Below are positions 1 to 56,285 of a DNA stretch of 64,000 nucleotides, piece by piece. Source of the stretch: Eledone cirrhosa (lineage: Eukaryota); contig OZ024747.1 in assembly GCA_964016885.1 (NCBI GenBank), positions 74,152,001 to 74,216,000 of the forward strand, read 5' to 3'. Under the pieces are notes generated by a model that ran no database searches, had not been told where the DNA came from, and was given only the letters and a program-made list of their open reading frames with translations. A program made the position numbers and the translations under genes. How positions within the stretch are numbered: the first letter of the stretch is position 1; each line of letters opens with the position of its first letter.

Positions 1-483
1 AGATGCTAATTAAAATTTCGACGTTTACTTTCCTTCATTTTACTTAGAATTTTGGACGAACGAATAAAGGATAATAATAATAAATAACTGATAAGAGAAA
101 TGTTTTCGTTGCCTTCATCTAAACTAATTCTTACCCACATGTCACATTGTCTTCTTGAACATAGGTGGACATCAAACAAGGAGCGGGGACTAACTGCTGA
201 TATAATAATAATTGATTAAACTATTGATCGCATCCATAATGAATGGAAGATGGATTGACCCGTCTTTATGAATTGGGTTGAAAATTCGGAATTATATGAC
301 AGACACTTTTACAGTACTGAAGGAGTTGAATTTTATGAATGAATTTTAGATTTTGAGATACTTTTGAAAAGTAAACACCAAATATTCCGAATCCTCAACC
401 TGAAGAACGCCTGAGGTTTTGTATTCAATATGGAGATGAAAACGATTTCTTCTGTTGAAGAGAAGTTATTTAGTTAAAACTCA

Positions 484-1427: not shown

Positions 1428-1617
1428 TATATTTTGATTATATTTTTCTTCCCAAACTACCAAACCACACATTTATTTGTATATGCGCTATACGTTATGT
1501 ACATGTTATATTTATCGCATATCGAAGTATTTTTATATCATGGTTGATATTTGATAATATATTATGTTAACCTTCATAGTAAAATGTTGGTCTTGTCATA
1601 ACTTTTTCTCCATATAT

Positions 1618-2411
1618 TTGCCAATGCCTAGTATGTGTATTGCCAGTTGGTAGTATGCCTATTGCCAATTGGTAGTATGTGTATTGCCAATTGCTAGTAT
1701 GTGTATTGCCAATTGCTGGTATGTGTATTGCCAATTGCTTTTATGTGTATTGCCAATTGGTAGTATGTGTATTGCCAATTGGTAGTATGTGTATTGCCAA
1801 TGGCTAGTATGTGTATTGCCAATTGGTAATATGTGTATTGCCAATTGTTAGTATGTTTATTGCCAATGGCTAGTATGTGTATTGCCAATTGGTAGTATGT
1901 GTATTGCCAATTGCTTGTATGCGTATTGCCAATTGGTAGTATGTGTATTGCCAATGGCTAGTATGTGTATTGCCAATTGGTAGTATGTGTATTGCCAATT
2001 GTTAGTATGTGTATTGTCAATGACTAATAGGTGTATTGCCAATAGCTAGTAGGTTTATTGCCAATTGGTAGTATGTGTATTGCCAGTTGTTAGTATGTGT
2101 ATTGCCAATGGCTAGTAGGTGTATTGCCAAAGGCTAGTATGTGTATTGCCAATTGGTAGTATGTGTATTGCCAATTGCTTGTATGTGTATTGCCAATGGC
2201 TAGTAGGTGTATTGCCAATTGGTAGTATGTGTATTGCCAGTTGTTAGTATGTGTATTGCCAATGGCTAGTAGGTGTATTGCCAATTGGTAGTAGGTGTAT
2301 TGCCAGTTGTTAGTATGTGTATTGCCAATGGCTAGTAGGTGTATTGCCAACGGCTAGTATGTGTATTGCCAATGGCTAGTAGGTGTATTGCCAATTGCTT
2401 GTATGTGTATT
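1618..2411. repeat. 22-bp minisatellite (tattgccaattggtagtatgtg)n
   Basis: About 35 tandem units with variants; internal palindrome ccaattgg. Confidence 0.97.
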
Positions 2412-2943
2412 CAGGGAAATATTTCAGTGGTCATTTTGCTACAATCACTTTGTAATTATGGGAAGCAGTAAATGTAATATGACCTGCTTGGACACTAATC
2501 GCATTTTCTGGCCATTTTAGAGTGCAAAGAGATAAAATGTTTAGTGTTGATATGGAGTTGGGGATTGGAACTGATTACCGTGTAGTAGGTATAGAGAGAC
2601 GGAGAGTATACTGGTAATTAATATAGAGAGGGGTAGCGAAAGAGAGTGATGTGTGGTAGATATAGAGAGGGGAAGAGTTTGTTGGTAAAGTATATAGAGA
2701 GTTGGATTAAGAGCGTGTTGTATGGAGAGTTGGAGAAAGTAGTGGTAATTAATATAGGGAGGGGGATTAGGAGTGAGAACCGTGTGGTAGATATATATAG
2801 AGAGAAATGTAGTATTGAATGATTAGAGAGTGTGTTGTATATTAGATACAGAGAGGGGGAGAGTTTGGGGTTGATTACTTCAAAGAGTGTTATTGGGAGA
2901 GTGTTTTTATGTTAGATATATAGATGGGAAGAATTTGGTGGTT

Positions 2944-2989
<46 letters not shown>

Positions 2990-3032
2990 AAATATACATA
3001 CATACACACACACATATATGTATATATATATA

Positions 3033-3358
3033 TAACGAATAAAGTGTGGTGAGGAACCAGGTGGACCATAACGCATCAGAGTACTTAGGGTAGTAGAGTG
3101 GGTAATGGGAAGAGTTCGGACCCCGACGGCTGACCTCAAGCCGTTTCAACAGCTATACATAGATATATATATATATAGGAAAATGTATGACCCGACGGCA
3201 GAGCTCAAGCCGTTTCGACGGCTATTTCAGAAATAGCCGTCGAAACGGCTTGAGCTCTGCCGTCCGGGTCATACATTTTCCTATTACCTACTACCCTAAG
3301 TATTGAGTACTCTGGTGCGTTATGGTCCATCTCGTTCCTTACCACAACTCCTTCGTTA
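3033..3358. mobile_element. Fold-back element family A (gacggc..gagctcaagccgtttcgacggctat), nested inverted copies
   Basis: Same sequence at 6153-6283, 13883-14080, 28072-28272, 55217-55270 and 56155-56285, always next to (TA)n. Confidence 0.85.
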
Positions 3359-3589
3359 TATATATATATGTATGTATACGGGGGCGGTTAATATATTTTC
3401 CCCTGCAAACTACCAAAACAGACATATATTTGGATATACGCTACAATTTATGTTTATCACATATCGAAGTTTTCTCACCGTTTTAGAGGGCAAGGAGTTT
3501 ATCTAATCACTACAAATACATTGACCAAACTTGACTACACCGGACCGTGGAAAGGGATAGAATACACTACGGCGAATAGACATGGTTGA

Positions 3590-3621
3590 TACTACTACTA
3601 CTACTACCACCACTACTACTA

Positions 3622-3688
<67 letters not shown>

Positions 3689-3698
3689 TACTACTACT

Positions 3699-3772
<74 letters not shown>

Positions 3773-3780
3773 TACTACTA

Positions 3781-3868
<88 letters not shown>

Positions 3869-3870
3869 CA
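3590..3870. repeat. (CTA)n microsatellite
   Basis: Direct observation; source of the poly-T/V/L ORFs. Confidence 0.99.
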
Positions 3871-4131
3871 ACTGTATCGTTAAGATAACACCGCCCCTAG
3901 CACTATGATAGTATTACCTCCTTTAGAACACGACTATTACGACCTCCTGCTACCGTCAACCTTATCACACTCCAACTATTACTGCCATTTCTACACGAAC
4001 TTTACTACTGCCACCACGTCTACATATGATTAACACCTACTATTTTAACCACACCTTATTAATTCTAGGTATGTTACTATTGATTTCTCCACCCTGCTCA
4101 CACTCTGCTTCAATCTCTACCTCTTTCTCTA

Positions 4132-6052: not shown

Positions 6053-6322
<270 letters not shown>

Positions 6323-13880: not shown

Positions 13881-13882
13881 TA

Positions 13883-14078
13883 TAGGAAAAGTTTCAGGAT
13901 CCGACGACAGAGCTCAAGCCGTTTCGACGGCTATATCTGGTCCAGATATAGACGTCGAAATGGCTTGAGCTCTGCCGTCGGGGTCCTGAACCTTGTCCTA
14001 TTACCCAGTATACTACCCAAAGTATCGAGTACTCTGGTGCGTTATGGTCCACCTGGTTCCTTACCTCACTTCCTTCGT

Positions 14079-14080
<2 letters not shown>
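13883..14080. mobile_element. Fold-back element family A copy
   Basis: Palindrome centred at ctgg-t-ccag (~13941), flanked by (TA)n. Confidence 0.85.
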
Positions 14081-14130
<50 letters not shown>

Positions 14131-28036: not shown

Positions 28037-28071
28037 CTATATGTATATATATATATATATATAAGTGGATA

Positions 28072-28272
28072 TAACAAATGAATTGTGGTAAGGAACAAGA
28101 TGGACCATAACGCACCAGAGTACTCAATACTTAGGGTAGTAGAGTGGGAAATAGGAAAAAGTATGACCCCGACGGCAGAGCTCAAGCGGTTTCGACGGCT
28201 ATTTCTGGACTGAGTCCAGAAATAGCCGTCGAAACGGCTTGAGCTCTGCCGTCGGGGTCATACTTTTTCCTA
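28072..28272. mobile_element. Fold-back element family A, 121-bp near-perfect palindrome (28152-28272)
   Basis: Centre at 28212; right arm GAAACGGC-ttgagctct-GCCGTC. Confidence 0.9.
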
Positions 28273-28292
28273 TATATATATATATATATGTA

Positions 28293-32624: not shown

Positions 32625-33219
<595 letters not shown>

Positions 33220-55216: not shown

Positions 55217-55284
55217 AAATAGCCGTCGAAACGGATTGAGCTCTGCCGTCGGGGTCATACTTTTTCCTATATATATATATATAT

Positions 55285-55517
55285 ATGAGTAAGTATGTTT
55301 TGAAACAGTGAGCAGGTTTGAAATTAGAAAATAGAATAGCATTCACCGTATTTTTGACTAAATAAATTTTAGCCTGATAATGGGGTTTAGAACCCTCAGA
55401 TAAATGGAAAAAGATGAGTATTGATGTACATCAATACTCATCTTTTTCCATTTATCTGAGTGGGGTTCGAAACCCCATTATCAGGCTAAAATTTATTTAG
55501 TCAAAAATACGGTGAAA
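55285..55517. mobile_element. Fold-back element family E with ~175-bp palindrome
   Basis: 55342-55516 palindrome centred on tgtaca (~55428). Confidence 0.88.
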
Positions 55518-56034: not shown

Positions 56035-56285
56035 CGTTTCTGAATTTGTTTAGCAAGATTCTTTATCTGAAATCGTGTGTTGAAACCGATATTGTTATAC
56101 TTTGGCAACATGACCCTCCCAAAGTATAACAATATATATATATATATATATATATAACGAAGGAAATGTGGTAAGGAACCAGGTGGACCATAACGCACCA
56201 AAGTACCCAATACTTAGGGTAGTAGAGTGGGTAATAGGAACCAGTAAGACCCCGACGGCTGAGCTCAAGCCGTTTCGACGGCTAT
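56030..56285. mobile_element. Adjacent family B (56030-56135) and family A (56155-56285) fragments
   Basis: Match 9365-9453 and 3033-3152; separated by (TA)n. Confidence 0.85.

What the first reader, a model, noticed from the sequence alone, without database searches (positions are those of the whole stretch)
28152..28272. Fold-back apex falls in ribozyme stem II, leaving half-hammerhead palindromes (family A)
Seen: the right arm reads GAAACGGC-ttgagctct-GCCGTC-ggggtc, i.e. GAAA, a 5-bp stem III, a GUC triplet and a stem I 3' strand. The CUGANGA half is absent from every copy here, and in the palindromic copies it is replaced by an inverted copy of the 3' part. Independent copies (~3229, ~13941, 28212) turn around at slightly different points 12-19 nt upstream of GAAA. 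Inference: nascent cDNA snaps back at the stem II hairpin and self-primes second-strand synthesis, so the ribozyme structure dictates the inversion point.
Basis: partly seen in the sequence, partly recalled or inferred. Interest (0 to 1): 0.75.

Follow-up and report, generated by a model that had tools for sequence, protein, structure and literature searches.

The report
Penelope palindromes centre on RNA start
This palindrome is one of about 15,000 short head-to-head insertions of a Penelope-type jumping gene in this genome, and its centre likely marks where the element's RNA begins, inside a ribozyme, with the two halves likely written by two separate reverse transcriptions rather than by one folding back.

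Summary
The palindrome is real (28151-28273, 123 nt) and is the short end of a Hydra-like Penelope retroelement inserted in (TA)n. The missing ribozyme half exists, but as UUGANAA (U3-A8 core; 4,220 hits), not CUGANGA (0 hits). The hotspot is real: 14,747 junctions lie in stem II, and 49 of 100 unselected copies end 11-22 nt before GAAA.

Snap-back at the stem II hairpin is not supported. The natural loop is kept in 1 of 75 inversions. The tail-less arm is at least 10 nt longer than the tailed arm in 20 of 75, so it cannot be that arm's copy. 0 of 18 ORF-long copies stop there.

Ends pile at the A of a conserved TYAGT, 18 nt before GAAA, in two diverged subfamilies, often with one untemplated G, as at this copy's centre. 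Best reading (0.65): two cDNAs primed at two fixed sites run off a capped RNA start and are joined head to head. No RNA data were available.

The scan reached the same reading before on other DNA of this genome (AI notes, not independent evidence). The inverted architecture itself is known.

The parts
28071..28211 (-). Tailed arm: from A(-18) through the 3' half of the ribozyme to the distal end ...TTGTTAT (about +120), the likely distal reverse-transcription start
   Evidence: same end in tandem copy L094 at 3989
28071..28150 (-). Tail (~77-80 nt) present on one arm only
   Evidence: one tailed plus one tail-less arm in 15 of 15 GAAA-anchored two-arm inserts
28212..28212 (+). Single central G, not templated by the element (natural base here is T); likely the copy of an RNA cap
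28213..28273 (+). Tail-less arm: from A(-18) to ...TTCCTAT (+42/43), the likely proximal reverse-transcription start
   Evidence: second arm ends at +43 in 61 of 75
28213..28219 (+). AGTCCAG: first bases of the arm; A of the conserved TYAGT motif (likely transcription start)
28220..28230 (+). 3' strand of hammerhead stem II (AAATAGCCG-T-C); its partner strand is absent from this copy
28231..28253 (+). GAAA, stem III with palindromic loop, GUC; predicted cut after 28253
28254..28258 (+). 3' strand of stem I (GGGGT)
28040..28062 (.). (TA)n target, left
28272..28290 (.). (TA)n target, right
3175..3361 (+). Sister two-arm copy, ends -14 (tailed) / -12
13882..14083 (+). Sister two-arm copy, ends -17 (tailed) / -15
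6152..6284 (+). Sister asymmetric copy: long arm from about -14, inverted arm stops near +9; long arm ends early at a GTTAT
3030..3157 (-). Single tailed arm, no inversion, ends about -8
56152..56285 (-). Single tailed arm, no inversion, ends about -8
55217..55270 (+). Single tail-less arm, no inversion, begins about -11

Best explanation
The palindrome is two short, oppositely oriented copies of the ribozyme-bearing end of a Penelope-like retroelement in a (TA)n repeat, likely made when both strands of the cut target primed reverse transcription at two fixed sites on likely the same RNA and both cDNAs ran off that RNA's likely capped 5' end, 18 nt before GAAA, and were joined head to head. 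SHOWN: the element (ORF with telomerase-like RT fold, complete U3-A8 hammerhead), one tailed plus one tail-less arm, a sharp outer edge of arm ends at the A of TYAGT in two subfamilies, an untemplated G there, either arm longer, and arms usually of the same variant. INFERRED: that the edge is a transcription start; that the G copies the cap; that one RNA serves both primers; that joining is by template jump or end joining with 0-4 nt overlap or short inserts. A predicted consequence is that the transcript begins inside its own ribozyme, so its 5' copy could not self-cleave while the complete 3' copy could. Long copies would come from a different, read-through RNA.
For: Cliff: of 100 tail-anchored copies, tail-arm ends fall at -22..-11 in 49, -10..+75 in 39, -23..-200 in 2, beyond -200 in 10. 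Of 61 arms reaching -11, 49 stop by -22 against 4.1 expected. 10 of 16 do so in 504 kb around the window. Word depth in public contigs rises about 13-fold across L094 3838-3853, where -18 = 3849 (one study, and depth is not copy number). Same edge in diverged subfamily B: in the first 50 of 302 junctions 44 arms reach A-18 and only 4 continue with the natural T (hand tally). TTAGT is kept there though its flanks differ. Untemplated G: in the first 50 of 731 junctions where both arms reach -18, 20 have exactly one base between, G/C in 20 and A/T in 0. The natural base is T in 13 of 13 pattern-matched complete ribozymes of that type (L063, missed by the pattern, has C). Among 64 single arms beside (TA)n, 44 stop at -18 and 13 of these have G in front, against 3 of 50 ending at -14..-16 (Fisher p 0.005, or 0.028 with equal gap limits). 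G:A is 13:4 against 0.07 expected from the target (p 2e-12). Two cDNAs: the second arm is longer by 10 nt or more in 20 of 75, the tailed arm in 4. The G precedes the tailed arm in 10 and the other arm in 11 of 21. One tailed plus one tail-less arm in 15 of 15; tail/tail in 1 of 75. The same two-arm plan holds in kb-long copies. Same template: arms share the +27..+42 variant in 49 of 58 against 12.5 shuffled. Literature: a purified PLE cuts and extends both strands and starts at two internal sites that bound the tail (PMC11167929); Penelope transcription starts within the upstream pLTR (PMC2377424).
Against: No RNA was seen, so start site and cap rest on DNA footprints. 0 of 18 ORF-long copies with an upstream pLTR end at -22..-11: a transcript starting at -18 does not look like the template of full-length copies, so a second RNA class must be assumed. 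The TATA-like TATTTA 29-31 nt upstream in subfamily A is absent in subfamily B. In subfamily B the commonest junction (30 of 50) is -18/-17 without a G. In subfamily A some arms run on to -19..-22 (6 of 100 tail arms). Secondary deletions inside palindromes could make some asymmetry (at least 2 internal deletions seen by eye). Shared variants could also reflect one active source at a time or later homogenisation. The base tallies are by hand from the first 100 rows listed, all from contigs C1-C2.
Confidence: 0.65

Rival explanations
1. Two cDNAs, but the stop is structural: the RT stalls in stem II, or the 5' RNA strand of stem II re-pairs and displaces the cDNA just after the 3' strand has been copied.
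For: The pile lies right after the 9-bp helix. Its distance from GAAA is the same in subfamily B, where the helix is kept by compensatory changes.
Against: Of 18 ORF-long copies, 17 cross the same ribozyme and none stops at -22..-11, against 49 of 61 for ordinary copies. A stall does not predict an untemplated G at one position. The upper helix differs between subfamilies while TYAGT is kept.
Confidence: 0.13
2. One cDNA runs off the same RNA 5' end and folds back on itself through 1-3 bp, priming its own second strand (self-priming, but not at the natural stem).
For: 39 of 75 inversions have both ends in the pile, many with 0-4 nt overlap. Arms share variants. Self-priming was proposed for PLE palindromes in PMC3846280. 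It may account for a subset.
Against: It needs the tailed arm always to be the longer, but it is shorter in 38 of 75. Within the pile it is 16 longer, 14 shorter, 9 ties. The G sits before either arm equally. One-base and zero-base centres leave no loop. 2 of 58 inserts carry arms that look like different subfamilies (by eye).
Confidence: 0.1
3. The RNA end at -18 is made by processing (a nuclease cut, a lariat branch near A-22, or splicing) rather than by transcription initiation.
For: It would explain a fixed end without a conserved TATA box. A yUnAy branch-like motif lies at A-22 in subfamily A.
Against: The branch-like motif is not at -22 in subfamily B. A TTAG splice acceptor would give an end at -16, not -18. 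A processed end does not predict the extra G.
Confidence: 0.07
4. One reading: the cDNA snaps back at the natural stem II hairpin and self-primes.
For: The location; one copy (C1:5808799) keeps the natural loop and fits (by eye).
Against: 1 of 75 inversions; arms end before the partner strand is copied; arm asymmetry; single arms end at the same place.
Confidence: 0.04
5. An ordinary MITE with TIRs and a TA duplication, or an assembly artefact.
For: Palindromic, inserted in TA.
Against: Variable centres, unequal arms, continuity with an RT ORF. A strand-switch contig with the same centre region occurs in a public run of another organism label (X5 record 19).
Confidence: 0.01

Closest known systems
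Hydra clade of endonuclease-bearing Penelope-like elements (Craig et al. 2021, PMC8557442; includes Hydra-1_Obim)
   Same: Single ORF (~719 aa from the first ATG) with RT then GIY-YIG-like end; RW[K/R], DKT, CxCx5C, CxxC and CxH motifs; (TA)n target; hammerhead; inverted 5'-truncated copy and one-sided tail.
   Different: Unit ~3.5 kb in tandem arrays against 'generally <3 kb'; tail ~77 nt against 30-40 bp; core U3-A8 rather than the canonical HHR reported. Identity with Hydra-1_Obim was not established: two motifs were not found in the one supplement file held as text, which is a metadata table.
Poseidon of Anolis (PAc), in vitro (Frangieh et al. 2024, PMC11167929)
   Same: Two internal RT start sites that bound the tail, cutting and extension of both target strands, AT-rich target, predicted dimer, ribozyme just upstream.
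   Different: In the parts read the paper does not link the two starts to inverted copies, nor map a transcription start inside the ribozyme.
PLE hammerheads (Cervera and de la Pena 2014, PMC4209133)
   Same: Long stem II with an unpaired base at its 5' end, short stem I, U3-A8 core variant in Schistosoma, pairs of ribozymes on opposite strands.
   Different: Here stem III is a full 5 bp and stem II carries a ~33-nt insert; about nine in ten copies lack the 5' half (12 of 100 tail arms pass -22).
Adineta Penelope palindromes and self-priming model (PMC3846280)
   Same: Inverted pLTR with palindromes at the junction and a one-sided tail.
   Different: That paper reads them as self-priming on an antisense template; the counts here favour two primers on a sense RNA.
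LINE-1 twin priming (recalled; no call)
   Same: Both target nicks prime cDNA and give an inversion.
   Different: In L1 the second primer copies a different, more 5' part; here both primers copy the same stretch from fixed sites ~77 nt apart, giving a duplication.

Membership tests
EN+ Penelope-like element | Telomerase-like reverse transcriptase | tested here: met
   AlphaFold model (pLDDT 88.6); top three Foldseek hits are telomerase RTs, E 9e-9; YRDDGL invariant in 35 of 35. Sequence profiles gave nothing (Pfam; PDB).
EN+ Penelope-like element | C-terminal GIY-YIG endonuclease in the same ORF | tested here: inconclusive
   IY..YIG..F.R motifs are conserved and the top homologue carries PF01541 (family name recalled), but no profile hit on this protein and the domain was not fold-searched alone.
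EN+ Penelope-like element | Partial tandems (pLTR), inverted 5'-truncated copy, one-sided tail | tested here: met
Hydra clade | RWK, DKT, CxCx5C linker, CxxC and CxH motifs | tested here: met
   RWR here (K in 24 of 35 aligned proteins), DKT, CNC-x5-C, CNLC, CKH against the description
Hydra clade | Insertion into (TA)n | tested here: met
Hydra clade | Phylogenetic placement with named Hydra elements | not tested
Type I hammerhead ribozyme | Three helices around the core, with covariation | tested here: met
   Three-way junction from RNAalifold; 92% of cells paired, three stem II pairs change on both sides between subfamilies (essentially one A/B split, few independent events). Single-sequence MFE folds differ from it.
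Type I hammerhead ribozyme | Canonical core CUGANGA | tested here: not met
   0 matches with stem II. The core is UUGANAA with free N7, the U3-A8 covariant known from Schistosoma PLEs. GAAA and GUC are present.
Type I hammerhead ribozyme | Self-cleavage | not testable with these tools
   Weak hint only: 11 of 39 early tail-arm ends lie at +17..+26 around the predicted cut (p 0.004, window chosen afterwards), 5 of 19 second-arm ends (p 0.31).
MITE | Fixed TIRs and constant length | tested here: not met
   Variable centres and unequal arms
Non-LTR retrozyme | Head-to-tail tandems of short units with complete ribozymes | tested here: not met
   Short copies are head-to-head and lack the 5' half

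The most novel reading that the evidence does not exclude
Penelope-like elements integrate by default with two primers on one RNA. A protein dimer starts two cDNAs at two fixed sites. The element's promoter starts transcription inside its own hammerhead, which switches the 5' ribozyme off by omission. The complete 3' ribozyme cuts away the downstream start sites, so ordinary transcripts yield only cap-marked palindromic stubs, while full-length copies arise only from uncut read-through or circular RNA.
Probability: 0.35. Interest if true: 0.72.

Novelty: new member of a known kind. Interest (0 to 1): 0.5.

Why it matters
How Penelope-like elements form their tandem and inverted structures is named as an open task in PMC8557442. 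This family supplies ~15,000 natural junctions with base-level footprints (a fixed edge, an extra G, two start sites, arm asymmetry) that separate self-priming from two-primer integration and make sharp bench predictions. It would also give a role to ribozyme placement: a transcript that starts inside its own hammerhead. The element type and the inverted layout are already known, which caps the score.

Tried and rejected
- CUGANGA-based searches: 0 hits with stem II. Of the 35 loose hits, those seen (output cut; L001-L022 visible) were junction inserts, flanks or inverted arms, not ribozymes.
- Rfam scan of the window: no hammerhead among the best 150 of 251 rows shown.
- Pfam and PDB sequence searches found nothing for the ORF. 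The ESM Atlas gave no answer.
- RNA: no RNA holder listed; no evidence either way. Contigs showed no informative splice joint.
- Lariat branch point at A-22: not kept in subfamily B. TATA box: not kept in B. A DPE consensus at +28..32 was not seen by eye (consensus recalled).
- Ribozyme cut site as a second pile of ends: weak.
- The first automatic parse gave spurious AT-rich partners and was redone. still miscalls a few rows (e.g. C1_3547691 and C1_1614461 are internal deletions, C1_4525525 is subfamily B); no row was dropped from its counts.
- Literature searches for a published two-primer or cap-G account of PLE palindromes found none. Searches for a citable cap-G paper gave none usable, so cap copying, the Inr and TATA consensus and L1 twin priming are recalled. 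One search fetched an unrelated paper.
- A sequence look-up in earlier findings returned nothing.

Full report
Observation. The finding is in the sequence as described. 28151-28273 is a 123-nt palindrome with one mismatch and a single central G at 28212. I number from the G of GAAA (0 = 28231 on the right arm). The right arm runs from -18 to +42 and meets (TA)n. The left arm, on the minus strand, runs from about -18 to about +120 (28071), so it has a ~77-nt tail that the right arm lacks. Six more copies lie in the window: three two-armed and three single-armed. The genome is 3.0 Gb and holds 16,047 exact arms, 49,258 exact tail motifs and 14,747 junctions with at most 30 nt between the two stem II strands. 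Reversed control patterns gave 0.

The ribozyme. Longer copies show the real one: ACCCC-TTGANAA-G-N-T-CGGCTATTT, 4,220 exact matches. N7 is free and 24 copies fold into a three-way junction. A diverged subfamily B (72 complete matches) keeps stem II by compensatory changes (these come from essentially one split). The core is the U3-A8 covariant reported in Schistosoma PLEs (PMC4209133, part 1 of 4 and passages read). Cleavage was not tested.

The element. Twenty long loci chosen for ribozyme hits often show kb-long inverted arms of unequal length with one tail. L094 holds a partial tandem with a long open frame. Pfam and PDB profiles miss it. It has 2,054 homologues at E 1e-20 or better among 7,996 candidates scored. 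A model from 35 aligned sequences (pLDDT 88.6) hits telomerase RTs first. Its motifs match the Hydra clade as described in PMC8557442 (passages, section 11 and a supplement search read). The inverted 5'-truncated copy with a one-sided tail is described there and in PMC3846280 (passages), which proposed self-priming.

Where the arms end. I took the first 100 tail matches on C1, an anchor that does not select for the 5' end. Tail-arm ends: 49 at -22..-11, 39 at -10..+75, 2 at -23..-200, 10 beyond -200 (all 100 counted, a few miscalled). Of 61 arms reaching -11, 49 stop within 12 nt, against 4.1 expected. Around the window 10 of 16 do so.

Snap-back fails. 75 of the 100 are inverted; the second arm ends at +43 in 61. 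A fold-back of one cDNA needs the tailed arm to be the template and hence the longer. It is longer in 26, shorter in 38 and tied in 11; it is shorter by 10 nt or more in 20 and longer by as much in 4. A fold-back at the natural stem would keep the stem II loop: I see 1 such case in 75. Single arms joined straight to (TA)n end at the same place. Of 30 loci whose tail runs on into the ORF, 18 have an upstream pLTR and at least 1.4 kb of ORF side; none ends at -22..-11. The other 12 are: 4 begin near the tail end, 2 cross the ribozyme with a short alignable ORF side, 3 short ones end at -14/-15, and 3 end elsewhere. This argues against any stop built into the structure.

The edge looks like a capped RNA start. 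It falls on the A of TYAGT, which both subfamilies keep while its flanks differ; its likeness to an initiator is recalled. In subfamily B, 44 arms among the first 50 of 302 junctions reach A-18; 4 continue with the natural T and 5 have a G (hand tally). In subfamily A, 20 of the first 50 of 731 junctions have exactly one base between two -18 ends, always G/C, although the natural base is T in 13 of 13 matched complete copies. The finding's centre is this class. For single arms, G precedes 13 of 44 ends at -18 and 3 of 50 ends at -14..-16, and G:A is 13:4 against 0.07 expected from the target. That reverse transcriptases copy a cap into an extra base is recalled; my searches found no citable paper. 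The G stands before either arm equally (10 and 11).

Mechanism. The ends at +43 and about +120 bound the tail, as the two in vitro start sites of the Anolis element do; that enzyme cuts and extends both strands (PMC11167929, parts 1-2 of 4 read). One tailed plus one tail-less arm is the rule (15 of 15; tail/tail 1 of 75), and arms share their variant in 49 of 58 against 12.5 shuffled. I infer two primers on one RNA, run-off at its start, and head-to-head joining. Penelope transcription is known to start inside the upstream pLTR (PMC2377424, passages).

Against this reading: there are no RNA data; ORF-long copies do not end at -18, so they need another RNA class; the TATA-like box of subfamily A is absent in B; most B junctions lack the G; and the tallies are by hand from the first listed rows.

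Prior notes and novelty. After I had formed this reading, the search of earlier findings showed that other agents of this scan reached the same two-primer, start-site reading on other DNA of this genome. These are unreviewed AI notes and add no support. Searches of the paper library found no such account in print; subscription journals and bioRxiv supplements are not covered. The retrozyme preprint 10.64898/2026.07.22.740005 (passages) does not address it in the passages seen.

Noticed in passing
window 55341-55517: A second, unrelated ~177-nt palindrome beside (TA)n with hammerhead-like motifs in its arms; likely another family with the same layout.
   Followed up: no
window 33135-33208: 74-nt palindrome of another sequence.
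   Followed up: no
window 1486-2420 and 3524-3940: Tandem arrays of 22-nt and 9-nt units.
   Followed up: no
G000 C1:91.476-91.487 Mb, C1:437.200-437.211 Mb, C2:320.55 Mb: Head-to-tail arrays of the whole element, period ~3.54 kb, 3-4 units; candidates for the read-through RNA that gives long copies.
   Followed up: partly
G000 C2:356.030-356.032 Mb: Seven matches to the tail/ORF junction at 299-bp spacing; a retrozyme-like or satellite derivative.
   Followed up: no
L275, L282, L286, L290: ORF-long copies whose 5' end falls at about the distal start site (the tail end), without any ribozyme part.
   Followed up: no
G000 C1 tail-anchored sample: Early ends of tailed arms gather at +17..+48, just inside the stretch where the other cDNA would already be paired; 11 of 39 lie around the predicted ribozyme cut.
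   Followed up: partly
junctions listed: Several centres carry short inserts copied from the arm itself, as in templated end joining (by eye).
   Followed up: no
L116 and L147 (G000 C1:493026, C1:5867912): Arms joined to element sequence several hundred nt upstream, skipping the ribozyme 5' half; internal deletion or template jump.
   Followed up: no
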